IMG/VR virus record: IMGVR_UViG_3300045988_139610
Direction: 5' to 3' (one strand)
Length of the DNA stretch: 64,000 nt
Source: a virus
The translations under genes were made by a program, and so were the position numbers. Numbering within the stretch: the stretch's first letter is position 1; each line of letters begins with the position of its first letter. Shown here one piece after another: positions 592 to 63,417 of this stretch. The notes below the pieces were generated by a model. It had not been told where the DNA came from, did not search any database, and saw nothing but the letters and a program-made list of their open reading frames with translations.

Positions 592-617
592 TTATAATTT
601 TATTAATTATTTTCAAT

Positions 618-1748
618 CTAAAAATCGAATAATTCGTCCTCGTCATCATCACCATCTGATAATATATCTAAATCTCCGTCCTCATCTAATAATTCTGGTT
701 TAGGTTCATTACCTTTACTTAATAACTCGTTTAATGTTAAAGGTACTGGTATTGCTCCTTTACTATATCCTCTACCTATTGAAGATATTTCCATTCTTCT
801 TTGCATAGACCCCATTCCTGCACCATATTGTTGTTTCAAATCTTCAATATCCATTAATCCGTACTTAACAAGTTCTTTTTCTTCATCGCTTAACATATCT
901 TCATTAAATGGCACTTCTTCATGTCTATTTATTAATCTAACTCTATACCCCATTTTACATAATTCATTATCGTCAAAGTTATCTAATAGCATTTTATCTA
1001 TTAATTTAGCCATTTTCTTAGCTTTCTCACTATCCTCACCTAATGGGTATTCAAATGATTGATAAAATCCTATATCAGCCTTTTTCTTAGAATTATACTC
1101 TGGTATATATCCATTTATAACTAATAGATTCTCTTCTTCTAATCTGCTATCGTCTAAACAATCTTCTGTTATATAAAATTCTACGTTTGCTAATGCTTTT
1201 TCTTCCGCCTCGTCATTTATAACATATATTCTTTGCACATTGTAATTTGTATAAATCTTTTCTTCGTGTGTTTTAGGATTAGTATAACTTGAATATTCTA
1301 TATTACCTTGTACTTTAAATTTTTTGTCTTTATAAGCATCTGATTTTAATATTGAGTGTACTGCCATTGAATAATCAAATTCATTACTGCACTCTACTCT
1401 TTCTTCGTTTTCGTCTACGAATACCAGTTTACGGAAGTTTGCGATTCTATCTTCATATTTTTCTCTGTCTTTATATTTAAAGTTAGTTGATTCAAATTTA
1501 CCGTCATTATCTAATATGGTATATATAGTTGAATCATTAACATTAAGTGTCCCATCTGAAGTTCTTTTGACATTATTCATGAAAGATTTTATTTGAAGAT
1601 TAAAGTTATCTTTATCACATTTCATATTCAAATTTAATTGTCTAATATTACAACCAGAATCTAATAGTTTATCACTAAAAGCTTTTCTATTTTCTCTATC
1701 TGGTGCTATTGATAATTTTCCAATCATAACAAAATTTAAATTACTCAT
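618..1748 (-). CDS. putative ssDNA-binding-type protein with acidic SSB-like C-terminal tip (…DDDEDELFDF)
   Basis: 376-aa ORF with SD AAGGAGAG; the CDS is solid, the function rests only on the C-terminal tail resembling the bacterial SSB tip DDDIPF. Confidence 0.45.
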   Translation of the reverse strand: MSNLNFVMIGKLSIAPDRENRKAFSDKLLDSGCNIRQLNLNMKCDKDNFNLQIKSFMNNVKRTSDGTLNVNDSTIYTILDNDGKFESTNFKYKDREKYEDRIANFRKLVFVDENEERVECSNEFDYSMAVHSILKSDAYKDKKFKVQGNIEYSSYTNPKTHEEKIYTNYNVQRIYVINDEAEEKALANVEFYITEDCLDDSRLEEENLLVINGYIPEYNSKKKADIGFYQSFEYPLGEDSEKAKKMAKLIDKMLLDNFDDNELCKMGYRVRLINRHEEVPFNEDMLSDEEKELVKYGLMDIEDLKQQYGAGMGSMQRRMEISSIGRGYSKGAIPVPLTLNELLSKGNEPKPELLDEDGDLDILSDGDDDEDELFDF

Positions 1749-1830
1749 ATATACATCTCTCCTTTATTAATCATTTTTATTAATATTTTATTTTGGCACT
1801 TCATATATTTTACATTTTAATCACCTCTTA

Positions 1831-1874
1831 TATTAGTATATTAACATAACCATATATAAAATTACCTATGAATT
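1831..1874 (-). promoter_or_regulatory. class-2 promoter-like two-box motif, copy a (ATAGGTAAT-N15-GTTAATA)
   Basis: minus strand reads TTCATAGGTAATTTTATATATGGTTATGTTAATATACTAATATAAGAGGTG; one of 8 copies with identical 15-nt spacing. Confidence 0.55.
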
Positions 1875-1875
1875 A

Positions 1876-2025
1876 TTATTTTTTATATCTTAAACTATAT
1901 ATTATTTCTCCTATTATTAATGACACTAAAACTACTACATAAGGAGTTACAAATTCTACTCGAAAAATTAATACTAGAGATAAGATTATAATAATACATC
2001 TTATAATCAAATCTTTTAAATTCAT
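1876..2025 (-). CDS. small hydrophobic protein (49 aa)
   Basis: hand-translated MNLKDLIIRCIIIILSLVLIF…; SD GGAGGTGAAGAG upstream; start overlaps the stop of the upstream small ORF (ATGA). Confidence 0.4.
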   Translation of the reverse strand: MNLKDLIIRCIIIILSLVLIFRVEFVTPYVVVLVSLIIGEIIYSLRYKK

Positions 2026-2198: not shown

Positions 2199-2262
2199 AT
2201 TAACATCTCTCCTTTTTTTTATTAATTATTTTTATTTACTTCCTATTTCATATTAATTTCTT

Positions 2263-2427: not shown

Positions 2428-2491
2428 ATTAAATCTCACTCCTTAACATAAATAAGTATATCATATTGTAAATATTCGTCAATACTTTTTA

Positions 2492-3265
2492 TTAATTATT
2501 TTCGGCTTTTTCTATTCTATTTTTAGCTATATTAAAGTAATTCTCATCTAGTTCAATTCCTATAAATTTACGATTAGTATTCATACAAGCAACCCCTGTA
2601 CTACCACTGCCCATAGTAAAATCTAATACTAAATCATTTTCATTAGTATATGTCTTAATCCAATATTCAAGTAATTTAATAGGTTTTTGTGTAGGATGTA
2701 TCCTATTTAAATTATTACATTCTCCTATAATTTTACTTAAACTATATAAATTTGTAGGATATCTTTTTGTATTATCATAATTTTTACTAAGTTTTGTAAT
2801 ATGTTTCCCATAATTATTGCTCGAATAACCTTCTTTGCTAATTGGTCTAATATTTTTTTGTTCTGCGTCAGTCATTTGAGGATTGTATATTGGTAATTTT
2901 TTATAAAAGACGCATATATCTTCTGTTCTTTTTAAAGGCATTCGTTTAGCATTAAGAAAACCACTTGGTAATTGTTTGTCCCATGTTATCCTATATTTAA
3001 ATTCTTTTAAATTACTACATATTAATTTACTTGTAAACGGCTCATCTGAAAATAATAATATAGGTGTATTTTTATTAATTAGTTTATGTATTTTTCCCCA
3101 CATACAATTAAAAGGAATTATTTCATCCCATTTATTTCTCGATGTTATTCCATATGGAATATCTGTAAATATCATATCAACTTTCATACCTTTTTCGATT
3201 AACATATCCATCACTTCTAAGCAATCGCCTTGATATAATTTATATCTTTCATTTTCTATACCCAT
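2492..3265 (-). CDS. DNA methyltransferase (N6/N4 type, DPPY-like motif)
   Basis: FTDIPYG (D/N-PP-Y/F-type motif) and LDFTMGSGSTGVA…IGIELD AdoMet-binding motif; paralog of 49537..50313. Confidence 0.9.
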   Translation of the reverse strand: MGIENERYKLYQGDCLEVMDMLIEKGMKVDMIFTDIPYGITSRNKWDEIIPFNCMWGKIHKLINKNTPILLFSDEPFTSKLICSNLKEFKYRITWDKQLPSGFLNAKRMPLKRTEDICVFYKKLPIYNPQMTDAEQKNIRPISKEGYSSNNYGKHITKLSKNYDNTKRYPTNLYSLSKIIGECNNLNRIHPTQKPIKLLEYWIKTYTNENDLVLDFTMGSGSTGVACMNTNRKFIGIELDENYFNIAKNRIEKAENN

Positions 3266-3439: not shown

Positions 3440-3510
3440 TCTTATCACCTTCCTATAAATACATTATATCACATTGAAATATAATATCGATACCTTTTAT
3501 TAATTATTTT

Positions 3511-5635: not shown

Positions 5636-5664
5636 CTTCGTATTATAAAATTTATTAATTATTT

Positions 5665-6825: not shown

Positions 6826-6862
6826 AATATCTATCCTCCTAAATTTTATTAATTATTTTTAA

Positions 6863-7690: not shown

Positions 7691-7777
7691 ATTTCTCACT
7701 CTCCCTTATTAATTATTTTTAATCCTTTACTATTTTTGTCGAGGTATTTCAATAAATTTACATTTTAATCACCTTCT

Positions 7778-7894: not shown

Positions 7895-7909
7895 TTATTA
7901 ATTATTTTT
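7895..7909 (-). repeat. representative copy of the gene-boundary 15-mer AAAAATAATTAATAA (UP-element position)
   Basis: exact copy; contains the stop codon of 7902..8441 and sits just 5' of TTGACA. Confidence 0.8.
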
Positions 7910-10384: not shown

Positions 10385-10619
10385 TACTTTTATTAATTAT
10401 TTTTATTTTATCTACTAAACAACTCAATTCATCCCAATTATGTAAATAAAACACATAATCATTTACATATACTTCAATTATTCCTTTTGAGAAAAAACTT
10501 CTCTCTCTAAAAATTATTCTTACTCTTAGTTGTTCATTTGCGAATATAGATATAAAATAGTTATCTTCAACTAATTTTAAATTTAGTTCTTTTTTCAGAT
10601 ATTCTATTTCTTTAATCAT
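10374..10619 (-). CDS. hypothetical protein
   Basis: 81-aa ORF, tightly packed behind 10623..11093. Confidence 0.6.
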   Translation of the reverse strand: MIKEIEYLKKELNLKLVEDNYFISIFANEQLRVRIIFRERSFFSKGIIEVYVNDYVFYLHNWDELSCLVDKIKIINKSIDK

Positions 10620-11646: not shown

Positions 11647-11711
11647 ATTATATTCCTCCTTTATTAATTTATACTTATATATTAACATAAACTAATTAAA
11701 AATAACCCTTA

Positions 11712-12206
11712 TTAATTATTTTTATCATCTAACAAATTAACTTCTTCAATATCATAATACTCGCAATCAGCACAACATGGAGATTCGCAACTTAATAAGC
11801 TATTCAATTCAGAAAGTTCAGATGGGTCTAAACTTTCTTTTCCATGAAGTTTACATTTATGAATTGTAAATTCAACTGAAGGTGTATTACTTTGTTGTAA
11901 AACACATATTCTTAAAAGAGTATAAACATCTATTATACCTTCATTACCTTCTGTAGTCATAGCTTGTATAATCTTATTTTTGTAATAATACGATATTGAT
12001 ATATTATAATTTCCATCTATTTTAGCTAATAATGTGAAATGTTTAGCATCTCCTATATTCGTATCTATATATTCGTATAAATCTTTAGATGTTAATTTTA
12101 TTGTCACCTCCAATACATTAAGTCCTTTTAATTTTTCAACCTTTTCCTCTACCTCGCTTATTATTAATTCTTCCAATTTATTTGCGAATAACTCATTTTT
12201 GTTCAT
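11712..12206 (-). CDS. hypothetical protein with C-terminal Cys cluster
   Basis: 164-aa ORF with SD AAGGGGG; CESPCCADCEYYD. Confidence 0.7.
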   Translation of the reverse strand: MNKNELFANKLEELIISEVEEKVEKLKGLNVLEVTIKLTSKDLYEYIDTNIGDAKHFTLLAKIDGNYNISISYYYKNKIIQAMTTEGNEGIIDVYTLLRICVLQQSNTPSVEFTIHKCKLHGKESLDPSELSELNSLLSCESPCCADCEYYDIEEVNLLDDKNN

Positions 12207-12260: not shown

Positions 12261-12355
12261 TACTTTTTATTAATTATTTTTATTAACTTTTCTTAATTTT
12301 TAACAATTAATTAGTGTGCTGTATGCACCTCCTCTATAGAAATGTATTTAATCCT

Positions 12356-15520: not shown

Positions 15521-15626
15521 AATATCTCCTCCTATTTTATTAATTATTTTTACTTAAACTTTCTAAATCTCCATAAAATTCCATCATATCATCCTCTCAA
15601 ACCTAGTAATATCAATTGTTCGTATA

Positions 15627-17295: not shown

Positions 17296-17322
17296 GTCTT
17301 ACCACCCCTTTATTAATTATTT

Positions 17323-17508: not shown

Positions 17509-17536
17509 ATTATTATTCTCCTTTTATTAATTATTT

Positions 17537-17759: not shown

Positions 17760-17792
17760 TGCTTTATTAATTATTTTTACTTCAATGTCTTA

Positions 17793-18524
17793 TTAATAAT
17801 TTATTGCATTTTCTTTATTCACAAAGAAATGTATTCCAGTACTGCATTCATTCCATCTATTATTATCAAAATTATCCACACTTACTATTTCTCCAACTTT
17901 GTATATGAAATTGCTGTCATAACTACTTCTTATTTCTTTTACTTTATCTCCCGTTTCAATGTTTTCTATATCTAATACTTTAGCTTTATCACATCTACAT
18001 TTTGCAGTAGTCGCACTACTTCTTTTAGAATCTTCTAATATCAATAACTTAACTATACATCCATTAGCTTTCTTATATCCTATAAAACTACCAGTTTCTG
18101 GACAAGCTAAATTATAACCAATAGTATGAATATTTGTTTTTATATCTTTTAAATTAGCACTACTTAAATCAGCACATCTCAAATTAGTATCTTTTAAATT
18201 AGAATAGCTTAAATTAGAATAGCTTAAATCTGCATTACTTAAATTAGTATATCTTAAATCAGCATATCTTAAATCTGCACATCTTAAATTGACACATCTT
18301 AAATCAGTATATCTTAAATTAGTATATCTTAAATCTGCATATTTTAAATTAACACATCTTAAATTAGTATTACTTAAATTAGCATTTTTTAAATTAGCGT
18401 TTTTTAAATTAGCACCACTTAAATCAACATTACTTAAATTAGCACGTTTTCCTCCTTCTCTTTTTAACCACAATTCATGTTCCTTTAATATTTTATTTAA
18501 TTCTTCTTGATTTATATTTTTCAT
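17793..18524 (-). CDS. pentapeptide-repeat protein with C-terminal GIHFF domain
   Basis: about 20 consecutive A(D/N)LxX pentapeptides (ANLKNANLSNTNLRCVNLKYADLRYTNL…). Confidence 0.85.
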   Translation of the reverse strand: MKNINQEELNKILKEHELWLKREGGKRANLSNVDLSGANLKNANLKNANLSNTNLRCVNLKYADLRYTNLRYTDLRCVNLRCADLRYADLRYTNLSNADLSYSNLSYSNLKDTNLRCADLSSANLKDIKTNIHTIGYNLACPETGSFIGYKKANGCIVKLLILEDSKRSSATTAKCRCDKAKVLDIENIETGDKVKEIRSSYDSNFIYKVGEIVSVDNFDNNRWNECSTGIHFFVNKENAINY

Positions 18525-18540
18525 ATTTATTTCTCCTTTA

Positions 18541-19113
18541 TTAATTATTTTTAATTTCTTTTATTATATCTTTAATTAAATTGATTTTTCTATTAATTGT
18601 CACACTACTTACATTTAATTTTTTAGATATATTTTTTTGCTTGTATCCATCCATTAACATATCCATAATTATATGTAATTCTTCTGCATTAATCTTATTA
18701 AATTTATTAATATTTCTTTTTTTTATTATACTATCAAATTCATTCATTAATTCTATATATTCGATATTTTGATATTCTAAATCTATTTTTCCTATAGTAT
18801 CTAATAGAGTAGTCTGTTCTTTATCATCGTCAGATATATTAACATCCATAGATATAAGCATATCTTTGTCTCTATAATAAGTGTTTCTTAAATAGACATT
18901 GTATGAATTGTATATAATTGCACAAATAAATTTTTTAATATCCCCTTTAGACTCATCAAATTTATTTCTAGATTCCCAAAGTTGTAGTAACGAATATTGA
19001 ATCATATCTTCTTTAATTTTGAAAAATCCATTATAATTTTTATTATATATCTTACCAGCTAATTCTAAAGATAAATTTACATATTCTGTATCACTTATCA
19101 TTGTTTTACTCAT
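18541..19113 (-). CDS. sigma-70-family (ECF-like) sigma factor
   Basis: C-terminal region-4 HTH GYKQKNISKKLNVSSVTINRKINLIKDII; paralog of 19194..19784; start set to the ATG after AGGGGG. Confidence 0.65.
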   Translation of the reverse strand: MSKTMISDTEYVNLSLELAGKIYNKNYNGFFKIKEDMIQYSLLQLWESRNKFDESKGDIKKFICAIIYNSYNVYLRNTYYRDKDMLISMDVNISDDDKEQTTLLDTIGKIDLEYQNIEYIELMNEFDSIIKKRNINKFNKINAEELHIIMDMLMDGYKQKNISKKLNVSSVTINRKINLIKDIIKEIKNN

Positions 19114-19193
19114 CACTTTACCCCCTATAGTTTATTAATTATTTTTATCTATACATAGATTGTATGATATTGTAATGATATTTGCCACCTCCT

Positions 19194-19784: not shown

Positions 19785-19874
19785 GTTTTCTTCCCCTTGT
19801 TTATCTTATACTATATATCATATGAACTTACTTGCCAAAAGTCAATACCTTTGACAAGATTTTATTAATTATTT

Positions 19875-20804: not shown

Positions 20805-20821
20805 ATTAAAACCTCCTTTTA

Positions 20822-21303: not shown

Positions 21304-21315
21304 TAAGTTTATTAA

Positions 21316-21900: not shown

Positions 21901-21937
21901 CTTCTTTCCCCCTTATACATTATTTTATTAATTATTT

Positions 21938-22606: not shown

Positions 22607-22632
22607 TACTTTTTATTAATTATTTATAAAGT

Positions 22633-23409: not shown

Positions 23410-23430
23410 AATATATCATCCCCTTATTAA

Positions 23431-23742: not shown

Positions 23743-23809
23743 TCATCCCCCTTGTTTTTATTTTATATATATATTATATGATGTTTATTATAATTTATCA
23801 ACTGTTTTA

Positions 23810-23899
23810 TTAATTATTTTTATAATTAATTATGAATAATAAAAAGCCCATTGCCCCACCAACTAAACTTATAAACATAAATGCTAATACATATTTCAT
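23810..23899 (-). CDS. possible 29-aa membrane peptide
   Basis: hand-translated MKYVLAFMFISLVGGAMGFLLFIINYKNN; SD AAAGGGGTGA; stop inside the 15-mer. Confidence 0.35.
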   Translation of the reverse strand: MKYVLAFMFISLVGGAMGFLLFIINYKNN

Positions 23900-30324: not shown

Positions 30325-30332
30325 CAGTTTTA

Positions 30333-46398: not shown

Positions 46399-46458
46399 AA
46401 AATGGATTGTATAAAAAATATAAGTATTATCAAAAATAATTAATAAGGAGAGGATAAT

Positions 46459-46671
46459 ATGAAAAAATGGAACTTAGAAAGTGCCAAAAAAGATTATTGT
46501 AAAACACATCATAAAAAATATAAAAAAGAAAAAATAGATTGCATGTATTGTGAATTTGCAGAATGGACTTATGATTGTGACATATATTGTCCTATAAAAG
46601 AAAAGGTGATTATTTTCTTTACAAATATACACGCAAAAAGATGTAAGTATTATCAACGTAGAAATAATTAA
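46459..46671 (+). CDS. small Cys-rich basic protein
   Basis: 70-aa ORF with SD AAGGAGAGG; ends RRNN inside the 15-mer. Confidence 0.6.
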   Translation: MKKWNLESAKKDYCKTHHKKYKKEKIDCMYCEFAEWTYDCDIYCPIKEKVIIFFTNIHAKRCKYYQRRNN

Positions 46672-46688
46672 TAAAAGGAGGTGATAAT

Positions 46689-47467: not shown

Positions 47468-47482
47468 AAAAATAATTAATAA
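47468..47482 (+). repeat. representative + orientation copy of the 15-mer, 3 nt upstream of the SD
   Basis: aaaaataattaataaAAAGGAGG-N8-ATG. Confidence 0.8.
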
Positions 47483-47497: not shown

Positions 47498-48697
47498 ATG
47501 GAGAACCAATGTAAAATAACTGTAGTAGATGCACCATGTGGGTACGGCAAGACTTCGTTTGCAATACAATACATGAATAATGAGCTATTTGAAAGATTTA
47601 TGTATATAACACCGTTTTTATCTGAAATAAATAGAGTAATTAAAACTTGTGACCAAAGAGAGTTTAGAAAGCCAAATGAGAAACTAGGGAAAGGAAGTAA
47701 GACAAATCACTTCTATGAACTTGTAAAAGAAGGTTATAACGTAATTTCAACACATTCTTTATTTAGAGGGTTAAGTCAAGAAGTAATAAATGATATTCGA
47801 GAAGGTGAGTATATACTCATATTAGATGAAGTATGTGATGTTGTCGAACAAATTTCAATATCCAAGAGAGATATTGAAATATTAATAAATGAAAAAATAA
47901 TTGAAATAGACGAAGAAAATAAAGCCCATTGGATAGATGATACATATGAAGGTAAATTTAGTAGTATGAAAAATCCAATTAAAAATGGCGATGTATATTT
48001 CTTTAATAATTCACTAATGTTATGGACATTTCCAATTAATATATTTACAGCTTTTAAAGAGGTTTACATATTAACATATATGTTTAAAGGTCAAGTACAA
48101 AGATATTATTACGATTTAAATAACGTAGAATATGAATATAAATCAATAGATAAAATTGATAGCAAATATAATTTATGTGAATATCAAGAAATCAACGGTA
48201 GTAAATATAAAGACTTAATACATATATATGAAGGTAAATTAAATTCTATAGGAGATAAGACTACTGCACTGTCTAAAAGTTGGTATGATAAATCTAGCAA
48301 GAAGGAATTGATGAAAAAATTAAAGAATAATACAGCAAACTATTTTACACATATAGTTAAAGGAAAGGGTAAATTTAATATGTGGACTTGTTTTGAGGAT
48401 TATAAACAACAATGTAAAGGTAAAGGTTATACAAATGGATTTGTACCTTGTAATAGCAGAGCAACTAATGAATATAAAGATAAAACTAATTGTGCTTATT
48501 TAATAAATAGATATTATAAACCCACAATTAATAATTTCTTTGTTGATAAAGGAGTTAAAATAGACGAAGATATTTGGAGTTTATCTGAATTAATTCAATG
48601 GTTATTTAGAAGTGCAATAAGAGAAGAAAAAGAAATTAATTTATATATACCATCTAAGAGAATGAGAAATTTATTAATTATTTGGTTAGATAAGTAA
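47498..48697 (+). CDS. SF2-like P-loop NTPase/helicase-like protein (intact paralog)
   Basis: DAPCGYGKTS Walker A, ILILDEV Walker B, QWLFRSAIR motif-VI-like. Confidence 0.7.
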   Translation: MENQCKITVVDAPCGYGKTSFAIQYMNNELFERFMYITPFLSEINRVIKTCDQREFRKPNEKLGKGSKTNHFYELVKEGYNVISTHSLFRGLSQEVINDIREGEYILILDEVCDVVEQISISKRDIEILINEKIIEIDEENKAHWIDDTYEGKFSSMKNPIKNGDVYFFNNSLMLWTFPINIFTAFKEVYILTYMFKGQVQRYYYDLNNVEYEYKSIDKIDSKYNLCEYQEINGSKYKDLIHIYEGKLNSIGDKTTALSKSWYDKSSKKELMKKLKNNTANYFTHIVKGKGKFNMWTCFEDYKQQCKGKGYTNGFVPCNSRATNEYKDKTNCAYLINRYYKPTINNFFVDKGVKIDEDIWSLSELIQWLFRSAIREEKEINLYIPSKRMRNLLIIWLDK

Positions 48698-48834
48698 TTT
48701 TGTTACCTCTAAGGTTGCAAAATCAAAAATCGCACTTTAAAATAACATAGTTTTATCGCAATATTTTAAAGACAAAAAATTCATTTTCTTAAAAGAATAA
48801 AAGAAGAGTAAAAATAATTAATAAAGAGATAATT

Positions 48835-49507: not shown

Positions 49508-49536
49508 AAAATAATTAATAAAAAGGAGGAAATGTT

Positions 49537-50313
49537 ATGAATATAAATTATAAATTATATCAAGGGGATTGTTTAGAAGTAATGGATGGATTAATTGAAG
49601 AAGGTATAAAATTTGATGCTATAATTGCAGACCCGCCTTATGGAACAACTGCATGTAAATGGGATTCAGTTATACCATTTGATGCAATGTGGGAGAGATT
49701 GAATAAATTAATAAAAGATAATGGAGCAATAGTATTATTTGGTAGTCAACCTTTTACAAGTGAGTTAGTCCATAGTAACATTAATAACTATAAACACTAT
49801 TGGATTTGGGATAAAGAAATATGTGGTGCTTTTGCATTGGCAAAGAAAAGACCAATGATTGTGACAGAAGAAATATTAGTATTTTCAAAAAATAATAATA
49901 GAATTAATTATTATCCTATAATGGAAGATGCAATTTCTAAAAATATTAGACCTGTAAATTTAGGAAGTTCAGTTAGTGAAGCAACCCCTGTTTCAAGTGG
50001 AATTGCTAAAAGTGATAAAAACTATAATCCAAAAAAAAGATACCCTAAAAACATAATTAAATATTCAAAGTATAATAAAGAGTGTAACCAATTAAATAGA
50101 GTACACCCAACACAAAAACCTGTGGAGATATTAGAATATTTAATAAAAACATATACTAATGAAGGAGATTTAGTATTAGATTTTACAATGGGTAGTGGTT
50201 CAACTGGAGTTGCATGCTTAAATACAAATAGAAAATTTATTGGCATTGAATTGGATGAGAAATACTTTAATATAGCTAAGGATAGAATAGAAGAATTAGA
50301 TAAAAATAATTAA
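49537..50313 (+). CDS. DNA methyltransferase (N6/N4 type, DPPY motif)
   Basis: IADPPYG and LDFTMGSGSTGVA…IGIELD; paralog of 2492..3265. Confidence 0.9.
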   Translation: MNINYKLYQGDCLEVMDGLIEEGIKFDAIIADPPYGTTACKWDSVIPFDAMWERLNKLIKDNGAIVLFGSQPFTSELVHSNINNYKHYWIWDKEICGAFALAKKRPMIVTEEILVFSKNNNRINYYPIMEDAISKNIRPVNLGSSVSEATPVSSGIAKSDKNYNPKKRYPKNIIKYSKYNKECNQLNRVHPTQKPVEILEYLIKTYTNEGDLVLDFTMGSGSTGVACLNTNRKFIGIELDEKYFNIAKDRIEELDKNN

Positions 50314-50332
50314 TAAAATAGGGGTGGATAAA

Positions 50333-51660: not shown

Positions 51661-51963
51661 ATGGAAATAAACGTAGTAAAAGAATTACAAGGAGCTTTAG
51701 AAGAAAGAGGCTTAAAAGTATCTCAAGCAGAGGCTAGAGAAATATTAAAAGGATTAGAAGATACTGTTTCTTCAATATATCAACAAATGGAAGTAGGAGA
51801 CACAGTTAGTATGGGAATGTTCCTAGTTGATAAGAAGATACAAAAAGGTAGAGAGGGTGTATTAAAAACTAAAGAAGGACAAGCTACACCTTATAAAACA
51901 GATGATAAAGTTACTGTAAAAGTTAGACTTAAAAAATCTGTAAAAGAAAGAATAGAAGAATAA
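51661..51963 (+). CDS. HU/IHF-family (type II) DNA-binding protein
   Basis: length and pattern (…LKVSQAEAREILKGLEDTV…GDTVSMGMFLVDKK…G…TPYKTDDKVTVKVRL) fit the HU fold. Confidence 0.6.
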   Translation: MEINVVKELQGALEERGLKVSQAEAREILKGLEDTVSSIYQQMEVGDTVSMGMFLVDKKIQKGREGVLKTKEGQATPYKTDDKVTVKVRLKKSVKERIEE

Positions 51964-51983
51964 TTAATAAAGGGAGGATAAAT

Positions 51984-60586: not shown

Positions 60587-61579
60587 ATGTATTACAATGA
60601 GAATCATAATCAAAAAGTCTTAAAACGTAAGGATAATTATAAATATATAGGAAGTTATCGTGCTAATGAGATAACTATAGATGGTAAATGTAATAAAAGA
60701 AAAGTATTTATCCGAGTTAAATGTCCTTACTGTGGTAAAGAATATGATATAAGGTTAGATGGTTTCCAAAACGGTAATAAATGTACTAATTGTTGTAATG
60801 AATATGAAAATAGTTTTGCTTATTATATACAACAAGAATTACAAGAGCCTTTAAATAAATATTGGGATTGGGAAGAGAATAATAAGTTAGGTATTAACCC
60901 ATATTTAATTTATAAAACATCTCGAAAACAAATTTGGATAAAGTGTGATAAAATTGATTATCACGACAATTACAAAACAACTCCTGCCGGTTTTACTATA
61001 GGAAACAGATGCCCATATTGTTCACATAATTCTGGTAAAGTACACCCCAAAGATAGTTTTGGAGCTTTATACCCAGACAAGACAAAATGTTGGTCTCCTA
61101 ACAATAAAAAGTCACCTTATGAAACAACAGCTAAAAGTGGCAAAAAATATAAATTTATATGTGAAAAATGTGGAAAAGAATTTAAAATTAGTCCACATGA
61201 ATTAAATAGAAGAGGTTTAGGTGTATTGTGTAACGATTGCAATTCTTATAAAGGAGAATTTTATATTAAAAAATGGTTAAATAAAAATAATATTTACTAC
61301 ATTTATAATAGATGTTATTTCGATGACTTAACAGGTGTGAATGGAGGAAAATTAAAACCAGATTTTATATTACCAGACTATAAGATTTGGATAGAGTATG
61401 ATGGAGAGCAACATTTTGAATGGCAAGAAACTTGGATGAGTAAAGAAAAATTTGAAACATTACAAAAACATGACAGAATTAAAGATGAATATGCTAAAAA
61501 GCATAATTGGAAGATTATAAGAATCCCATATTGGGATTTTAATAATATAAATATCATTTTAGAAGGAGGTGTAAGTTAG
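60587..61579 (+). CDS. multi-Zn-ribbon protein with C-terminal PD-(D/E)xK (Vsr/DUF559-like) nuclease domain; homing-endonuclease-like
   Basis: repeated CPYC/CxxC ribbons and W-x-W…CPYCS blocks; C-terminal KPDFILPDYKIWIEYDGEQHF…HDRIKDEY…IRIPY. Confidence 0.6.
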   Translation: MYYNENHNQKVLKRKDNYKYIGSYRANEITIDGKCNKRKVFIRVKCPYCGKEYDIRLDGFQNGNKCTNCCNEYENSFAYYIQQELQEPLNKYWDWEENNKLGINPYLIYKTSRKQIWIKCDKIDYHDNYKTTPAGFTIGNRCPYCSHNSGKVHPKDSFGALYPDKTKCWSPNNKKSPYETTAKSGKKYKFICEKCGKEFKISPHELNRRGLGVLCNDCNSYKGEFYIKKWLNKNNIYYIYNRCYFDDLTGVNGGKLKPDFILPDYKIWIEYDGEQHFEWQETWMSKEKFETLQKHDRIKDEYAKKHNWKIIRIPYWDFNNINIILEGGVS

Positions 61580-61581
61580 AA

Positions 61582-62856
61582 TTGGGAGATAAACATTTAA
61601 AATTAAAAAGCAATTTAGAAGTTTTTAAATCTTCAAAAGATTCTCGTTTTGTAGGATGCAGAATACTTGTATGTCACGACCAAGATAATTTAAATGGTTC
61701 TTGGTTTGATTCAGAAACACAAATGAAATGTGCTGAAAAAAGTATTAGAGGTATACCCTTATTAGCTCATGTTTATAAAAATGAAGATGACAAATGGGTT
61801 TTAGGTGGACATGATACTAAAGTGGAGGCTACTGATACTACAGATGGTTACGATTATCAGTTAATATATCTTGAAAAAGCTTATGGATTCGTTCCAGAAG
61901 ATACTATAATTACACAAGTAGAAAAAGACGGTAAGAAATATTTATCTTGCACAGCATTAATATGGAGGGAGTATTCCCAACAATTACTTGATATATTAGA
62001 TTCTAACGATGGTGCATTAGAGGTATCTATGGAAATAGATGTTGACGATTTCAGCTTTAGAGAAGATGGATTCTTTGAAATAACTGATTTTACTTTTTTA
62101 GGTATAACAATGCTTGGTGTAGGTGTTAAACCTGCTATGGCAGGAGCTAACTTATCTCTGTTCACTTGTGGAGATGTTAAAACTGAATTAGAAGAAATGA
62201 AGAAAATTTATTCTTTAGAAAAGGGAGGTGAAACAATGGACAAAGAGTTTGAAAATCAAGAAGTTCAAGAAACTGAAGAATTTGAAAATCAAGAGGAAAC
62301 TCAACAAGAAGATTTCACTCCAGATGAAGAAGAACAAAAAGAAGAATGTTCTCAAGATAATTCTGAAGAAAAGAAAGAAGATTGTTCAGAAGAGGAAGAA
62401 GATAAAGATAAGGAAAATCATTCTGTTGAAGATAACACAGAAGATGAAAAATATGCACAATTAAAAACTGCTTTTGACCAATTAAAAGTTGAATATGAAG
62501 AATTAAAAACTCAATTAGAAAACATGAGTGATTATGAAGAATTAAAACAATTTAAAGCTGATAGCGATGCTAAACAATTTAAATTAGAAATTGATTCTAT
62601 AACTGAAAAATATTCTTTAGATACAGAAGATGCTAAAGCACTTCAAGACACAGTATTAAAACATGAAATATCTAAAGAAGAATATGAAGGGAAATTAGCT
62701 ATAATGTGGGCTAAACAAGTTAAAGAAGCTCAATCATTTAGTAAAACTAAAACTGGAAAGGCTAATTCAATAGGTATAATAAATCCAAATGAAGAATTTA
62801 TAGATTCTAATGCACCTTACGGTGGTAGATTAGAAAAATGGAGAACTAAAAAATAA
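61582..62856 (+). CDS. scaffolding protein with N-terminal XkdF/prohead-protease-like domain
   Basis: about 200-aa N-domain, then a very acidic low-complexity region and coiled coil; position before the capsid gene; TTG start. Confidence 0.5.
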   Translation: MGDKHLKLKSNLEVFKSSKDSRFVGCRILVCHDQDNLNGSWFDSETQMKCAEKSIRGIPLLAHVYKNEDDKWVLGGHDTKVEATDTTDGYDYQLIYLEKAYGFVPEDTIITQVEKDGKKYLSCTALIWREYSQQLLDILDSNDGALEVSMEIDVDDFSFREDGFFEITDFTFLGITMLGVGVKPAMAGANLSLFTCGDVKTELEEMKKIYSLEKGGETMDKEFENQEVQETEEFENQEETQQEDFTPDEEEQKEECSQDNSEEKKEDCSEEEEDKDKENHSVEDNTEDEKYAQLKTAFDQLKVEYEELKTQLENMSDYEELKQFKADSDAKQFKLEIDSITEKYSLDTEDAKALQDTVLKHEISKEEYEGKLAIMWAKQVKEAQSFSKTKTGKANSIGIINPNEEFIDSNAPYGGRLEKWRTKK

Positions 62857-62876
62857 TAAAACAGGAGGTAAAATTT

Positions 62877-63383
62877 ATGTATCAAATATTAACTTATGTA
62901 GAAGATAATTTTGCTAAATCAGCAATATGCTCTACTGAATTAAAAAATGGTGAAGTAGTATTAGTAAAAGGACTAGCTGATTCAACTCTAGCTAAAATAG
63001 ATAATATAGGAGTTGAAGGTGAATGTTATGAAGTGACAGACTTAGAAGATGACGCTAATAAAATATTAGCTATGGTAGCATCTGACGGTCATAGATATGA
63101 AAAAGAAACATCTTATAATTTTGGTGATTATGCAAACACACCAGCTGGAGAAGCAGTGAGAATTTATTTCTTACACAAAGGTATGGTTGTTGATATAGAA
63201 AAAATACTTATAGATGGAACTGTTGCTAAAGGAGACCAATTAACTGTTAAAGCTGGTTCACATAATCTTAAAAAATACACTGCTCCAACTGGTGATGAAG
63301 CAGATGCTAAAAGAATAGTAGGTGAAGTTATAGGTACTTCAAATTTAATGGGTAAAGATATGGTGCAAATATTATTCTATTAA
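62877..63383 (+). CDS. head-associated protein (possible decoration protein)
   Basis: 168-aa ORF between the scaffold and capsid genes (SPP1-like order); positional inference only. Confidence 0.35.
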   Translation: MYQILTYVEDNFAKSAICSTELKNGEVVLVKGLADSTLAKIDNIGVEGECYEVTDLEDDANKILAMVASDGHRYEKETSYNFGDYANTPAGEAVRIYFLHKGMVVDIEKILIDGTVAKGDQLTVKAGSHNLKKYTAPTGDEADAKRIVGEVIGTSNLMGKDMVQILFY

Positions 63384-63417
63384 GAATAAAATAATTAATA
63401 AAATGGAGGTTAAAAGA

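What the first reader, a model, noticed from the sequence alone, without database searches (positions are those of the whole stretch)
600..63401. Gene-boundary 15-mer AAAAATAATTAATAA: about 55 strand-polar copies whose orientation flips with the two transcription arms
What I saw:
- On the + strand of the left arm, the exact 13-nt core TTATTAATTATTT (reverse complement of AAATAATTAATAA) recurs at about 47 positions by eye. Starts: 600, 2219, 2489, 3497, 5652, 6846, 7706, 7895, 10390, 11709, 12267, 15537, 17310, 17524, 17764, 18538, 19132, 19862, 20819, 21309, 21925, 22613, 23424, 23807, 23997, 24805, 25911, 26791, 27105, 30330, 30963, 31007, 31020, 31603, 32016, 32673, 33301, 33927, 33971, 34904, 35301, 35402, 37452, 37509, 38287, 39271, 39479.
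- There are also more than 10 one- or two-mismatch variants, for example at 1764, 19194, 24770, 29680 and 37785.
- In the right arm the word appears in the opposite orientation, at 46432, 46662, 47468, 48810, 49508, 50302, 51959 and 63388.
- It is therefore always co-oriented with the local genes. I saw only one wrong-orientation copy (48671, inside a CDS).
- It is absent from the 39.6-46.4 kb centre/plasmid module and rare in the 52-63 kb structural genes.

Contexts:
1. It sits 3-12 nt upstream of the SD, as in AAAATAATTAATAAAAAGGAGG-N8-ATG.
2. It often supplies the upstream stop in the frame AAT AAT TAA TAA. At least nine predicted proteins therefore end in NN (ORFs ending at 2492, 11712, 18541, 20822, 26794, 30333, 46671, 50313 and 52585).
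3. In roughly a third of copies it lies immediately 5' of a consensus TTGACA, the position of an UP element.
4. Overlapping tandem copies occur at 31007-31033.

Candidate roles (inference):
- an UP element or translation enhancer;
- a site for a phage DNA- or RNA-binding protein, analogous to mycobacteriophage stoperators or start-associated sequences;
- a junction for cassette shuffling, like T4-type PeSL elements;
- a replication-polar motif (KOPS/Chi-like), because its orientation also points away from the candidate origin.
Basis: partly seen in the sequence, partly recalled or inferred. Interest (0 to 1): 0.85.

Follow-up and report, generated by a model that had tools for sequence, protein, structure and literature searches.

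The report
Phage repressor boxes between early genes
An AT-only 15-17-base word that recurs about once per kilobase, always pointing the same way as the genes, in the early-gene arms of a gut phage-plasmid is most likely the docking site of the phage's own SPbeta-type (MrpR/SroF-like) master repressor, used about ten times more densely than in the studied relative SPbeta.

Summary
The core AAATAATTAATAA occurs 56 times (0.27 expected), and 55 copies are co-oriented with the local genes. It carries 41 of 56 left-arm gene junctions and 7 of 9 right early-arm junctions. It is absent from the central plasmid module and from 9 of 9 late junctions. At least 12 related ~135-kb gut phage contigs carry the same word, never inverted, at 94-99% identity against ~82% in the flanks.

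Copies fall into fixed contexts: 5-6 nt upstream of consensus -35 hexamers (about 35-40%), 0-5 nt upstream of the Shine-Dalgarno (about 40%), or just after a stop codon and before a hairpin.

The window encodes (24921-25793, minus strand) a recombinase-fold protein whose nearest solved structures are the SPbeta/phi3T master repressors MrpR/YopR/SroF. These bind, as monomers, asymmetric boxes dispersed over the phage genome. I located the SPbeta box (SPBRE) and found the same contexts and co-orientation.

More distant relatives with diverged MrpR-like genes, including C. difficile phage LIBA2945, carry different AT-rich polar boxes in the same positions.

Best reading: an operator/stoperator-like array for this repressor, and so a new, hyper-dense variant of a known system. 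Binding itself is untested.

The parts
24921..25793 (-). Gene for a 290-aa MrpR/YopR/SroF-family recombinase-fold protein, the candidate box-binding master repressor
   Evidence: PDB sequence hits are SroF 9rd5 and MrpR 8a0a. The AF2 model has pLDDT 90. The Foldseek top 7 are SroF/YopR/MrpR, E 8e-9 to 6e-7. Homologues carry PF22823 MrpR_C_cat. No invariant Arg or His in the CAT domain.
25911..25923 (-). Box, exact. It lies between terminator 25963-25945 and the TTGGTA-N17-TGTATAAT promoter of the MrpR-like gene (autoregulatory position).
600..612 (-). Box, exact; stop codon, then box, then hairpin, then SD
2219..2231 (-). Box, exact; class S (before SD)
2489..2501 (-). Box, exact; class P (6 nt before TTGACG); supplies the stop (NN*)
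3497..3509 (-). Box, exact; 6 nt before the weak -35 TCGATA-N16-TG..TATAAT
5652..5664 (-). Box, exact; stop codon, then box, then hairpin, then SD
6846..6858 (-). Box, exact; class S
7706..7718 (-). Box, exact; class S (0 nt to SD)
7895..7907 (-). Box, exact; class P (6 nt before a 12/12 promoter)
10390..10402 (-). Box, exact; class P (5 nt, 12/12 promoter)
11709..11721 (-). Box, exact; supplies the stop (NN*)
12267..12279 (-). Box, exact; class P (6 nt, 12/12 promoter)
15537..15549 (-). Box, exact; class S
17310..17322 (-). Box, exact; class S
17524..17536 (-). Box, exact; class S
17764..17776 (-). Box, exact; class P (4 nt, 12/12 promoter)
18538..18550 (-). Box, exact; class S; supplies the stop (NN*)
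19132..19144 (-). Box, exact; class S
19862..19874 (-). Box, exact; class P (16 nt)
20819..20831 (-). Box, exact; class S; supplies the stop (NN*)
21309..21321 (-). Box, exact; class P (5 nt, 12/12 promoter)
21925..21937 (-). Box, exact; class S (12 nt)
22613..22625 (-). Box, exact; class P (6 nt)
23424..23436 (-). Box, exact; class S (0 nt)
23807..23819 (-). Box, exact; class P (5 nt); supplies the stop of a doubtful 50-aa ORF
23997..24009 (-). Box, exact; stop codon, then box, then intrinsic terminator 23988-23969
24805..24817 (-). Box, exact; upstream of near-copy 24772 and of the antirepressor-like gene 24015-24755
26024..26036 (-). Box, exact; co-oriented but inside ORF 25975-26775
26791..26803 (-). 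Box, exact; class S; supplies the stop (NN*)
27105..27117 (-). Box, exact; class P (5 nt)
30330..30342 (-). Box, exact; class P (5 nt, 12/12 promoter); supplies the stop (NN*)
30963..30975 (-). Box, exact; class S; its 3' half also lies 17 nt after TTGGCA (the -10 position)
31007..31019 (-). Box, exact; tandem pair with 31020
31020..31032 (-). Box, exact; tandem pair with 31007
31603..31615 (-). Box, exact; class P (16 nt); also at the -10 position of an upstream TTGAAA
32016..32028 (-). Box, exact; class P (5 nt before TTGTCA)
32673..32685 (-). Box, exact; box followed by a hairpin
33301..33313 (-). Box, exact; context unclassified
33927..33939 (-). Box, exact; class P (8 nt); also at the -10 position of an upstream TTGACA
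33971..33983 (-). Box, exact; 15 nt before TTGACA
34904..34916 (-). Box, exact; 11 nt before the SD
35301..35313 (-). Box, exact; class P (18 nt)
35402..35414 (-). Box, exact; class S
37452..37464 (-). Box, exact; class S
37509..37521 (-). Box, exact; class P (5 nt)
38287..38299 (-). Box, exact; class S
39271..39283 (-). Box, exact; class S
39479..39491 (-). Box, exact; class P (7 nt, 12/12 promoter); first box of the left arm
46434..46446 (+). Box, exact; class S (0 nt); first box of the right arm
46662..46674 (+). Box, exact; class S; supplies the stop (NN*)
47470..47482 (+). Box, exact; class S
48812..48824 (+). Box, exact; box, then hairpin, then SD
49509..49521 (+). Box, exact; class S (before the DNA methylase gene)
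50304..50316 (+). Box, exact; class S; supplies the stop (NN*); directly before the sigma-like gene 50324-51514
63389..63401 (+). Box, exact; class S; the only copy beyond 52 kb
48671..48683 (-). The only anti-oriented exact copy, inside the 3' end of CDS 47498-48697; probably not functional
1764..1776 (-). Near-copy AAATGATTAATAA; class S; the orthologous site in L117 is exact
17790..17802 (-). Near-copy AAATTATTAATAA at the stop of 17793-18524
19194..19206 (-). Near-copy AAATAATGAATAA at the stop of 19194-19784
24772..24784 (-). Near-copy AAATAATAAATAA; class S, before the antirepressor-like gene
27065..27077 (-). Near-copy ATATAATTAATAA; class S; overlaps the -10 of promoter 27099
29682..29694 (-). 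Near-copy AAATTATTAATAA; class P (5 nt), upstream of the Xer-like recombinase gene 28709-29614
38795..38807 (-). Near-copy ATATAATTAATAA; class S
39332..39344 (-). Near-copy AAAAAATTAATAA; class P (6 nt)
51958..51970 (+). Near-copy GAATAATTAATAA; class S, before gene 51984-52286

Best explanation
The box tAAAAATAATTAATAAa is the asymmetric DNA site of a phage-encoded, sequence-specific repressor. The most likely repressor is the MrpR/YopR/SroF-family, recombinase-fold, non-catalytic protein encoded at 24921-25793 (minus strand).

In SPbeta and phi3T this kind of protein clamps as a monomer onto a long non-palindromic box that is repeated across the phage genome, and so keeps the lytic genes silent.

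In this element the box has been multiplied to about one per kilobase, so that almost every early or accessory gene unit is prefaced by one. About 35-40% of copies sit 5-6 bp upstream of the -35 of consensus sigma-A promoters. A bound clamp there would occlude sigma region 4 and the alpha-CTD, which is classical operator action. About 40% sit between co-transcribed genes, directly in front of the next ribosome-binding site. There a bound clamp would act as an orientation-dependent roadblock to read-through transcription, as mycobacteriophage stoperators do.

The central plasmid module (Rep3), the ParM-like partition operon and the late structural operon carry no box. The late genes would stay off indirectly, because the sigma-like gene at 50324-51514 is itself prefaced by a box.

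Shown here: the anatomy, polarity, conservation and module restriction of the box; the identity of the protein's fold family; and the same site architecture in SPbeta, LIBA2945 and other relatives. Inferred: that this protein binds this box, that binding represses, and that in-operon copies act as roadblocks.
For: 1. The box is a selected, strand-polar element.
- 56 copies against 0.27 expected, and 0.9 or fewer expected under order-5 Markov models of intergenic DNA.
- 55 of 56 copies are co-oriented in the window. In 17 loci from related contigs there are 13-28 copies per ~20 kb and none inverted.
- Identity is 94-99% in the core against about 82% in the flanks.

2. It has fixed geometry. Among 333 non-redundant contexts:
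- 90 of 128 promoter-linked copies end 5-6 nt before the -35, and 22 more end 15-18 nt before it.
- 116 of 138 SD-linked copies end 0-5 nt before the SD.
- 16 of the 19 best sigma-A-like promoters of the left arm carry a box.

3. It is restricted by module. Boxes occupy 41 of 56 left-arm junctions, 7 of 9 right early junctions and 0 of 9 late junctions. There is none in the central module or upstream of the ParM-like operon.

4. A repressor of the right family is encoded in cis.
- Profile against PDB: SroF 9rd5, E 1.7e-6.
- AF2 model, pLDDT 90. Foldseek top 7 are phi3T SroF and SPbeta YopR/MrpR (E 8e-9 to 6e-7), ahead of Cre at 2.5e-4.
- hhalign against YopR: E 7e-5.
- Homologues are annotated PF22823 MrpR_C_cat.
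- No invariant Arg or His in the CAT domain.
- The gene has its own box-bearing promoter and is flanked by terminators.

5. Published behaviour of that family.
- MrpR is monomeric, binds the 15-bp SPBRE at 10 dispersed early promoters, and represses PaimR and PyosX about 5-fold (PMC10516654).
- SroF binds as a monomeric clamp that reads 24 bp, at multiple dispersed sites, and the motif differs between phages (bioRxiv 10.1101/2025.11.27.690993).

6. SPbeta has the same architecture. I located about 12 SPBRE copies. All are co-oriented with the downstream gene. They lie 6 nt before a -35 (aimR, distal yonX), 1-10 nt before an SD (yopM, yopV, proximal yonX, yonO), or overlapping the -10.

7. The box changes with the lineage while the contexts stay the same.
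- MrpR-like protein at 60% identity: same box.
- 48-51%: wwAATAATTAATA.
- 40%: TAyAAAATAAATAA.
- 37%: AAATAAATATAAAATTAATAAA.
- 29% (C. difficile phage LIBA2945): AACTAAATAAAATACAAA, 15 co-oriented copies against about 0.35 expected.
Against: - There is no binding or expression data for this element. The protein-box link rests on homology and analogy.
- About 1 site per kb is roughly ten times the SPbeta density, so the system would need much more repressor. Dense sites might reflect some other use.
- The conserved length here (15-17 bp) is shorter than the 24 bp read by SroF.
- A relative whose protein is only 60% identical keeps the identical box, so protein-box co-variation is coarse. Shared descent alone could produce it.
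- At promoter-linked copies the box plus the following AAAGTA matches the UP-element consensus in the correct register. Host alpha-CTD could therefore be what reads these copies, alone or as well as the repressor.
- Roadblock action at in-operon copies has not been shown for any MrpR/SroF protein.
- No LexA box or Sar-like switch was found.
Confidence: 0.55

Rival explanations
1. Host-read AT-rich enhancer. The box is an UP element for the RNA polymerase alpha-CTD at promoters, and an unstructured A/U-rich translation enhancer or stop-codon buffer in front of ribosome-binding sites. No phage-specific factor is involved.
For: - About 35-40% of copies end 5-6 nt before a consensus -35.
- With TTGACA placed at -35, the sequence from -57 to -38 matches 8 of 9 proximal and 8 of 11 distal positions of the UP consensus. 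The consensus is my recollection of Estrem et al. 1998; the sequences are.
- The secondary spacing class at 15-18 nt is one helical turn further out.
- The box carries TAA in two frames and ends 9 genes.
Against: - Alpha-CTD and ribosomes do not require a fixed 15-mer, yet every position is 94-99% conserved while the flanks drift.
- 20-25% of copies precede a hairpin or terminator, or lie far from any start signal.
- 0 of 9 late-gene junctions have a box, although those genes also need translation.
- LIBA2945, with equal AT content, does not use this word.
- Relatives use different words in the same places.
- The SPbeta counterpart in the same positions is experimentally a repressor site.
Confidence: 0.12
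2. Phage-specific promoter. The box is a -10-type promoter, comparable to T4 late TATAAATA, that is read by host RNA polymerase carrying one of the phage's sigma-like factors. Each early or middle gene would then get its own transcript, starting at the end of the box.
For: - Exact conservation, co-orientation and placement before nearly every gene of one temporal class fit a promoter.
- The box contains AATAAT, a 5/6 match to TATAAT.
- The window encodes three sigma-like proteins: 50324-51514 (phrog_5767), and 19194-19784 and 18541-19116 (weak Sigma70_r2/ECF hits).
Against: - 37 of 138 SD-linked copies abut the SD with 0 nt between them. That leaves no leader ahead of the SD.
- Several copies are followed directly by an intrinsic terminator (23997; L124, L125, L126).
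- The fixed 5-6 nt spacing to a host-type -35 is not expected for an independent promoter.
- A different element, CATAGGTAATTTT-N11-12-TGTTAATA, looks more like a two-block alternative-sigma promoter.
- The homologous SPbeta box binds a repressor.
Confidence: 0.1
3. Recombination linker. The box is kept because it provides short, identical, co-oriented homology at gene boundaries. That lets gene cassettes be exchanged between co-infecting relatives without breaking genes, like T4-type PeSL cassettes or Botstein's linker sequences.
For: - 34% of 506 homology breakpoints between the window and relatives lie within 15 nt of a box, against 3.8% for uniform positions and 16% for intergenic positions.
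- Alignment coverage rises at the box.
- Homology between the HNH-like paralogues in the two arms runs exactly from box to box.
- Relatives share only 52-84% of their sequence.
Against: - Any conserved element at gene boundaries makes alignments end at it, so the breakpoint signal does not show cause.
- 13-17 bp is short for homologous recombination.
- Selection for evolvability does not explain the fixed spacing to the -35 or SD, or the exclusion from the plasmid and late modules.
- The SPbeta box shares the architecture with only about 12 copies.
Confidence: 0.08
4. RNA-level signal. The transcribed box is a cleavage or binding site (for example for the phage beta-CASP nuclease at 3511-4776, or for host RNase Y), or a termination-reinitiation signal that separates cistrons.
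For: - Strand polarity and placement between cistrons fit an RNA signal.
- The phage encodes a beta-CASP/RMMBL protein.
- The box often overlaps the upstream stop codon.
Against: - The fixed 5-6 nt spacing to the -35 is a DNA-level constraint.
- Some copies lie between an intrinsic terminator and a promoter, where little RNA would be made (25911).
- The box is absent from late polycistronic operons.
- No Rfam family matches and the box has no conserved structure.
Confidence: 0.06

Closest known systems
SPBRE boxes bound by the master repressor MrpR/YopR (= SroF) of Bacillus phages SPbeta and phi3T
   Same: - The cis-encoded repressor is of the same recombinase-fold, non-catalytic family.
- The box is asymmetric and AT-rich, of about 15-24 bp, and dispersed over a ~135-kb temperate phage genome.
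- All copies are co-oriented with the downstream gene.
- The three positions match: about 6 nt before the -35, 1-10 nt before the SD, or overlapping the -10.
- A box sits at the repressor's own operon and before the late-transcription gene (yonO there, the sigma-like gene here).
- The box sequence differs between phages.
   Different: - About 12 boxes per 134 kb in SPbeta, against 56 exact copies in 64 kb here, a roughly tenfold higher density. Here 73% of left-arm early junctions carry a box, including junctions inside operons and on stop codons.
- The box here is 100% A/T, and its conserved length (15-17 bp) is shorter.
- The element is a plasmid-type prophage (Rep3, ParM-like, Xer-like) of uncultured gut Firmicutes, not an integrated Bacillus prophage.
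- No arbitrium or LexA/Sar module was found.
- Binding has not been tested.
Stoperators/operators of cluster A mycobacteriophages (L5 gp71, TipsytheTRex repressor)
   Same: - The repressor is monomeric and the site is a 13-bp asymmetric sequence.
- There are more than 20 copies, in promoters and in short intergenic spaces.
- Orientation strictly follows the direction of transcription (PMC9283540).
- This is the best functional analogy for the in-operon copies.
   Different: - The repressor family is unrelated (HTH plus a second domain, not a recombinase fold).
- The sites are GC-containing, the hosts are actinobacteria, and stoperators also occur in the structural arm.
- Roadblock activity has been shown there, not here.
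C1 operators of phage-plasmid P1 (recalled from memory, not checked here)
   Same: It is a plasmid prophage silenced through many dispersed, asymmetric ~17-bp operators that are read by one repressor.
   Different: There are far fewer sites, they lie at promoters only, and the repressor is unrelated.
UP element of bacterial promoters
   Same: Promoter-linked copies occupy -41 to -57 and fit the A/T-rich consensus.
   Different: UP elements are degenerate, are read by the host, and occur only at promoters. This box is exact, is lineage-specific, and most copies are not at promoters.
PeSL cassettes of T4-type phages
   Same: They are repeated regulatory sequences that flank small early ORFs in hyperplastic regions, and they coincide with mosaic junctions.
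   Different: PeSLs are 40-70-bp promoter-plus-stem-loop units. Here the conserved unit is a 17-bp box with variable neighbours.

Membership tests
MrpR/SroF repressor with SPBRE-type operator system (SPbeta-like phages) | Phage encodes a tyrosine-recombinase-fold protein of the MrpR/YopR/SroF family | tested here: met
   9rd5 SroF, E 1.7e-6; Foldseek top 7 are SroF/YopR/MrpR. Homologues carry PF22823 MrpR_C_cat.
MrpR/SroF repressor with SPBRE-type operator system (SPbeta-like phages) | The protein has lost the catalytic Arg and His residues (it is a repressor, not a recombinase) | tested here: met
   Among 23 homologues there is no invariant or near-invariant Arg or His in residues 88-290. Lys189 and Tyr282 are kept, as K169 and Y304 are in MrpR. 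The Arg-I position aligns to a non-Arg residue against Xer 4a8e. Residue equivalence was not checked by structural superposition.
MrpR/SroF repressor with SPBRE-type operator system (SPbeta-like phages) | A non-palindromic box of about 15-24 bp, repeated at dispersed sites in the phage genome | tested here: met
   The conserved box is 17 bp and asymmetric, with 56 exact copies.
MrpR/SroF repressor with SPBRE-type operator system (SPbeta-like phages) | Boxes lie in front of early or lytic genes, co-oriented with them, at or next to promoters | tested here: met
   The same geometry was found in the SPbeta sequence.
MrpR/SroF repressor with SPBRE-type operator system (SPbeta-like phages) | Box sequence is specific to the phage lineage and changes with the repressor | tested here: met
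   Five different boxes occur in contigs whose MrpR-like proteins are 60%, 48-51%, 40%, 37% and 29% identical. The resolution is coarse: the 60% protein keeps the same box.
MrpR/SroF repressor with SPBRE-type operator system (SPbeta-like phages) | The repressor physically binds the box and represses transcription | not testable with these tools
   Needs EMSA, ChAP-seq or reporter assays.
MrpR/SroF repressor with SPBRE-type operator system (SPbeta-like phages) | Repressor gene lies next to an integrase-like gene (yopP-yopQ-yopR synteny) | tested here: inconclusive
   The genes are adjacent in LIBA2945 and in L140-L143. In the window the Xer-like gene 28709-29614 lies about 3 kb upstream, with three genes in between.
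MrpR/SroF repressor with SPBRE-type operator system (SPbeta-like phages) | Arbitrium (AimR/AimP) and a LexA-controlled Sar antirepressor | tested here: not met
   No LexA box above chance. No AimR-like hit among the scanned proteins, though not all ORFs were scanned. This feature defines the arbitrium subgroup, not the repressor-box pair.
Stoperators (cluster A mycobacteriophages) | Asymmetric site, many copies, in promoters and short intergenic gaps, orientation tied to transcription | tested here: met
   definition from PMC9283540.
Stoperators (cluster A mycobacteriophages) | gp71-type HTH immunity repressor | not tested
   No such protein surfaced in the Pfam and PHROG scans. The candidate binder here belongs to a different fold family, so this is analogy, not membership.
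Stoperators (cluster A mycobacteriophages) | Orientation-dependent block of transcription elongation | not testable with these tools
   Needs read-through reporters with the box in either orientation.
UP element | A/T-rich sequence at -38 to -59 of a promoter | tested here: inconclusive
   Met for the 34-38% of copies that are promoter-linked. Not met for the SD-linked and terminator-linked copies.
Chi/KOPS-type replication-polar motif | Short polar word spread along the replichore irrespective of gene boundaries | tested here: not met
   41 of 56 copies lie wholly in the 19% of the window that is intergenic, and most of the rest overlap gene ends. Spacing to the -35 or SD is fixed. No copy lies in the late region (52.3-63.4 kb), which has the same polarity.
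PeSL-type mobile regulatory cassette | Early promoter plus stem-loop unit that flanks ORFs and recombines | tested here: inconclusive
   Breakpoints cluster at boxes. But the conserved unit is the 17-bp box alone, hairpins are optional, and recombination was not observed.

The most novel reading that the evidence does not exclude
The recombinase-fold protein, alone or together with the neighbouring bona fide Xer-like recombinase at 28709-29614, does more than repress. It would synapse the co-oriented boxes, so that box-to-box gene cassettes are excised, exchanged or captured. That would be an integron-like shuffling system built from a repressor and its operators, and it would explain why homology breakpoints and paralogue boundaries coincide with boxes.
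Probability: 0.06. Interest if true: 0.9.

Novelty: new variant of a known kind. Interest (0 to 1): 0.6.

Why it matters
If the reading holds, it matters in four ways.

1. It extends the recently discovered recombinase-fold master repressors (MrpR/SroF) from Bacillus SPbeta-like prophages to ~135-kb phage-plasmids of gut Clostridia-type Firmicutes. That includes the large plasmid phages of C. difficile, whose lysogeny control is undescribed.

2. It shows the same repressor-box logic scaled up tenfold, to nearly every early gene boundary. This converges on the stoperator silencing of mycobacteriophages but uses an unrelated protein fold.

3. It gives a directly testable model, with one protein and one 17-bp box, for how a large plasmid prophage carrying some twenty consensus promoters is kept silent.

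4. It offers a simple sequence signature, a polar and lineage-specific AT-rich box in front of the SD or the -35, for predicting immunity groups and early regulons in uncultured phages.

Tried and rejected
- Near-identical DNA in the phage and plasmid collections: none.
- Literature search for the word itself: only unrelated hits.
- Rfam scan of the whole window: no match.
- Chi/KOPS-like reading: rejected because the copies are confined to gene boundaries and absent from the late arm.
- Box as the -10 of sigma-A promoters: only about 6% of 349 copies have a -35-like hexamer 16-18 nt upstream of TAATAA, and several of those are coding sequence.
- MotA-box-like reading (box at -30): the only -10-like hexamers downstream overlap the start codon. 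This rests on inspection.
- Iterons or origin repeats in 39.4-46.5 kb as an explanation for the flip in polarity: only weak repeats were found. The flip simply follows the direction of the genes.
- LexA box or SOS switch: nothing above chance.
- Box-to-box homology of paralogues as independent proof of cassette mobility: judged uninformative, because the boxes abut both gene ends anyway.
- Link to the phage DNA methylases (the box contains ATTAAT, AATT and TTAA) or to the HU-like proteins: considered, but no test was available.
- The large sigma-like factor as reader of the box: unlikely, since LIBA2945 has the homologue but not the box, and the late genes lack the box.

Full report
**1. What the window is**

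The window has 25% GC and two divergent gene arms. The arms are:
- minus-strand genes from 1 to about 39.5 kb;
- plus-strand genes from about 46.1 kb onwards.

Between them lies a central module with a Rep3 initiator (44151-45107) and an FtsK-like ATPase.

The left arm holds many small genes. It also encodes a ligase, ClpP, a beta-CASP nuclease, a ParM-like actin, a Xer-like tyrosine recombinase, DNA methylases and several Rha/ANT/Bro antirepressor-like proteins.

The right arm runs through a sigma-like gene (phrog_5767, E 1e-76), HU-like genes and a metallophosphoesterase into terminase and portal. The portal is about 32% identical to those of the ~130-kb plasmid phages of C. difficile (phiCD211, LIBA2945), and LIBA2945 is syntenic.

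No near-identical DNA is present in the phage or plasmid collections. IMG/VR does hold at least 12 related contigs of 133-140 kb, and a human-gut 'uncultured Firmicutes' MAG holds a portal that is 95% identical. The element is therefore a large temperate phage-plasmid of uncultured gut Firmicutes.

**2.

- The core AAATAATTAATAA occurs 56 times against 0.27 expected, and 73 times with one mismatch allowed.
- 48 copies are on the minus strand of the left arm and 7 on the plus strand of the right arm. One copy is inverted, inside a CDS.
- 41 copies lie wholly in the 11,950 nt of intergenic sequence. Markov models up to order 5, trained on that same sequence, expect fewer than one.
- The conserved word is 17 nt, tAAAAATAATTAATAAa. 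Flanking frequencies are T 76%, A 81% and A 90% on the 5' side, and A 89% on the 3' side.
- Ten ORFs end in NN*, nine of them through the box. The tandem pair at 31007/31020 exists.
- LIBA2945, at 26% GC, has one exact copy in 132.5 kb and no 13-mer with more than 7 copies. AT-richness therefore does not produce the word.

**3. It is under selection and belongs to a family of phages**

- In 17 loci of about 20 kb from related contigs there are 13-28 exact copies each, and none is inverted.
- In BLAST alignments of these loci to the window, the core positions are 94-99% identical. The flanks are about 80-85% identical.
- The relatives are strongly mosaic: only 52-84% of each locus aligns.
- 34% of 506 alignment ends fall within 15 nt of a box. 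The figure is 3.8% for random positions and 16% for intergenic positions.
- I read this last result with caution, because any conserved boundary element makes alignments stop there.

**4. Anatomy**

The distance from a box to the next start codon is bimodal. Among 333 non-redundant contexts from the window and its relatives:
- 128 copies precede a near-consensus TTGACA-N16-18-TATAAT promoter. The box ends 5 nt (58 copies) or 6 nt (32 copies) before the -35, with a second group at 15-18 nt (22 copies).
- 138 copies precede a Shine-Dalgarno, and 116 of these end 0-5 nt before it.
- 67 copies are of other kinds. These include stop codon-box-hairpin and stop codon-box-terminator arrangements, and weaker promoters.

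In the window the split is 19 promoter-linked, 23 SD-linked and 14 other. Sixteen of the 19 best sigma-A-like promoters of the left arm carry a box. A small subgroup at 30-34 kb puts the 3' half of the box at the -10 position, 17 nt after TTGACA, but this holds for only about 6% of copies.

Occupancy by module:
- left arm: 41 of 56 junctions of 15 nt or more;
- right early arm: 7 of 9;
- late region 52.3-63.4 kb: 0 of 9;
- central module: none;
- upstream of the ParM-like operon: none.

The sigma-like gene is itself prefaced by a box (50304).

**5. The lead that decided the interpretation**

The features listed above pointed to a sequence-specific DNA-binding protein:
- the word is exact and asymmetric;
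- it always follows the direction of transcription;
- it lies both at promoters and inside operons;
- it avoids the maintenance genes.

The 290-aa product of 24921-25793 has no Pfam hit at E 0.01 or below, only a weak PHROG 'integrase' hit. It is 92-97% identical in ten relatives. Its best PDB sequence matches are phi3T SroF (9rd5) and SPbeta MrpR/YopR.

Several results strengthen the assignment:
- A profile of 23 homologues gives SroF at E 1.7e-6.
- hhalign against YopR gives E 7e-5 over 163 columns.
- All homologues carry a precomputed PF22823 'MrpR_C_cat' hit.
- An AlphaFold model (pLDDT 90) finds SroF, YopR and MrpR as its seven best PDB neighbours (E 8e-9 to 6e-7), ahead of Cre at 2.5e-4.
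- No Arg or His is invariant in the catalytic domain of the family, while a Lys and a C-terminal Tyr are kept. MrpR shows the same pattern.

The gene is a separate unit. A terminator lies upstream (25963-25945). Next come a box (25911), a TTGGTA-N17-TGTATAAT promoter, the gene itself and a second terminator at 24930-24904.

**6. What is known about that family**

MrpR is the master repressor of SPbeta. It is monomeric, and ChAP-seq gives ten peaks at the 15-bp 'SPbeta repeated element' (SPBRE) in front of early genes. It represses PaimR and PyosX about fivefold (PMC10516654).

The phi3T orthologue SroF binds DNA as a monomeric clamp that reads 24 bp, at multiple sites dispersed over the phage genome. 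Different phages have different motifs (bioRxiv 10.1101/2025.11.27.690993). A monomeric clamp explains why the site is asymmetric.

**7. Direct comparison with SPbeta**

I fetched the SPbeta genome and located the box upstream of the published MrpR targets. It reads about ACAAATACAAAWAATATGTATA. Its roughly 12 copies are all co-oriented with the gene downstream. They occupy the same three positions as the box studied here:
- 6 nt before a -35 (aimR, distal yonX);
- 1-10 nt before an SD (yopM, yopV, proximal yonX, yonO);
- overlapping the -10 of a TAGACA-type promoter (yonP, yorE, yorM, yorZ, yosX).

The yopM and yopV sites abut the SD and are among the published ChAP-seq peaks. PaimR, with its box 6 nt before the -35, is the promoter shown to be repressed. 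A copy also precedes yonO. From memory, yonO encodes the RNA polymerase that transcribes the SPbeta late genes. This parallels the box in front of the sigma-like gene here.

**8. The box changes with the lineage, the grammar does not**

Contigs that encode progressively more distant MrpR-like proteins carry these polar boxes:

| MrpR-like identity | Box |
|---|---|
| 60% | same box (23 copies in 20.9 kb, none inverted) |
| 48-51% | wwAATAATTAATA |
| 40% | TAyAAAATAAATAA |
| 37% | AAATAAATATAAAATTAATAAA |

Each of these again sits directly before an SD or 4-6 nt before TTGACA.

LIBA2945 encodes a 29%-identical homologue (hmm E 4e-90) next to xerC. It has 15 co-oriented copies of AACTAAATAAAATACAAA against about 0.35 expected, in the same two contexts, including two at the promoter of the xerC/MrpR-like operon.

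The co-variation is coarse, and common descent could mimic it. But a signal read by the host would not be expected to be replaced word for word between related phages.

**9. Mechanism proposed**

In the plasmid-prophage state the MrpR-like protein would occupy the boxes.
- At promoter-linked copies it would block sigma region 4 and the alpha-CTD.
- At in-operon copies it would act as a polar roadblock, as shown for the unrelated monomeric repressors of cluster A mycobacteriophages. Their 13-bp asymmetric sites lie in promoters and in short intergenic gaps, and they work in one orientation only (PMC9283540).

Maintenance genes lack boxes and stay on. Late genes stay off because their sigma-like activator is box-controlled. 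The Rha/ANT/Bro-type genes, one of them directly downstream of the repressor gene, are candidates for antirepressors.

The steps from 'the protein is an MrpR homologue' to 'it binds this box, represses, and blocks elongation' are inferences.

**10. Rivals**

- UP element: the register and the consensus fit for promoter-linked copies, and this may well contribute there. It fails to explain the exactness, the other contexts, the absence from late genes and the lineage specificity.
- Promoter for a phage sigma: this conflicts with boxes that abut the SD, with boxes followed by terminators, and with the fixed spacing to a host-type -35. A separate element fits a two-block alternative promoter better (section 11).
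- RNA-level signal: this conflicts with the -35 spacing and with copies that lie between a terminator and a promoter.
- Recombination linker: this is compatible with the breakpoint data but is best seen as a consequence of the boxes, not the reason for them.
- Chi/KOPS: excluded.

**11. Other things seen**

- A second co-oriented element, CATAGGTAATTTT-N11-12-TGTTAATA, with about 9 copies. It lies mostly where the box is missing.
- Repeated hairpin-AGCTC-inverted-repeat units at 36-38.3 kb.
- Two small ECF-like sigma candidates.
- Paralogous cassettes shared by the two arms.
- A 2-kb stretch at 39.5-41.6 kb with no ORF of 50 aa or more.

**12. Verdict**

The box is best explained as a hyper-dense SPBRE-type operator array for an MrpR/SroF-family repressor. 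That makes it a new variant of a known kind of system.

I found no description of such boxes, or of MrpR-like repressors, for the large Clostridial plasmid phages in the searchable literature.

My confidence in the protein-box model is about 0.55. Interest is 0.6.

Noticed in passing
window 1839-1870(-), 13297-13328(-), 45532-45563(+); near-copies at 7806-7817(-), 24882-24893(-), 28689-28700(-), 45408-45419(+), 45821-45832(+), 48948-48959(+): A second, distinct co-oriented two-block element, (T)CATAGGTAATTTT-N11-12-(T)ATGTTAATA. It has 3 exact copies against 0 expected. It lies mostly in gaps that lack the main box, including the central module and the gap just downstream of the ParM-like operon (13297-13328). 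TCATAGGTAATT is also a top k-mer in relatives. It may be a promoter class for one of the phage sigma-like factors, or another operator.
   Followed up: partly
C. difficile phage LIBA2945 (MF547663.1; loci L135-L137): gene 106078-106971(-); boxes e.g. 71445, 100782, 100880, 108114 (-) and 13594, 127723 (+): This published C. difficile plasmid phage encodes an unannotated MrpR-like protein (LIBA2945_00135, 29% identity, hmm E 4e-90) next to xerC. It has 15 co-oriented copies of AACTAAATAAAATACAAA (about 0.35 expected), lying before SDs or -35 hexamers. This is a candidate master repressor and regulon for this phage group.
   Followed up: partly
window 36348-36371, 37063-37087, 37959-37982, 38303-38325 (all -), with hairpins just upstream: Repeated units of the form hairpin, then AGCTCNNNNCTATC-N4-8-GATAG (an inverted repeat), then TATAAT-like hexamer, ATTAATAA and SD, in front of small genes at 36-38.3 kb. 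In several of these, TATAATATTAATAA replaces the canonical box. It looks like a second operator type inside early promoters.
   Followed up: partly
window 19194-19784(-), 18541-19116(-), 50324-51514(+): Three sigma-like genes: two small ECF-like candidates (weak Sigma70_r2/ECF hits below the Pfam cut-off) and one 396-aa phrog_5767 'sigma factor' with a C-terminal HTH and a zinc-ribbon/HNH-like tail. A relative (L138) has clearer Sigma70_r2 genes at the matching place.
   Followed up: partly
window 22633-23409(-) vs 46689-47465(+); 27362-28537(-) vs 47498-48697(+); 2492-3265(-) vs 49537-50313(+): Three paralogous gene pairs are split between the two arms: an HNH-like pair, a phrog_2467 pair and an N6/N4 DNA methylase pair, at 69-73% nucleotide identity. 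The HNH-like homology runs exactly from the upstream box to the downstream box.
   Followed up: partly
window 39500-41640: About 2 kb with no ORF of 50 aa or more, between the left arm and the central module. It has only weak direct and inverted repeats and no Rfam hit. It could hold the origin or iterons, a centromere, or non-coding RNAs.
   Followed up: partly
window 39479-39504 and 46421-46446: The first box of each arm, with about 13 nt beyond it (TAAGTA...AAAAATAATTAATAA), forms a 26-nt inverted pair that is 85% complementary. The pair brackets the 7-kb plasmid module.
   Followed up: no
window 48671-48683 and 26024-26036: Two atypical copies. One is the only inverted copy, inside the last 27 nt of CDS 47498-48697. 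The other is co-oriented but lies inside ORF 25975-26775, read in the one frame of the box that has no stop codon.
   Followed up: no
SPbeta NC_001884 (L146): 63898(-), upstream of yonO: A one-mismatch SPBRE-like copy lies 10 nt before the SD of yonO. From memory, yonO encodes the phage RNA polymerase. It was not among the ten peaks named in the MrpR paper, and it may be covered by the neighbouring yonP peak.
   Followed up: no
window 3511-4776(-), 5665-6825(-), 13646-14575(-): The early arm encodes a beta-CASP/RMMBL nuclease, a ClpP-like protease fused to a C-terminal extension, and a ParM/ALP actin-like partition protein. This is an unusual cargo set for a siphophage-like element.
   Followed up: no
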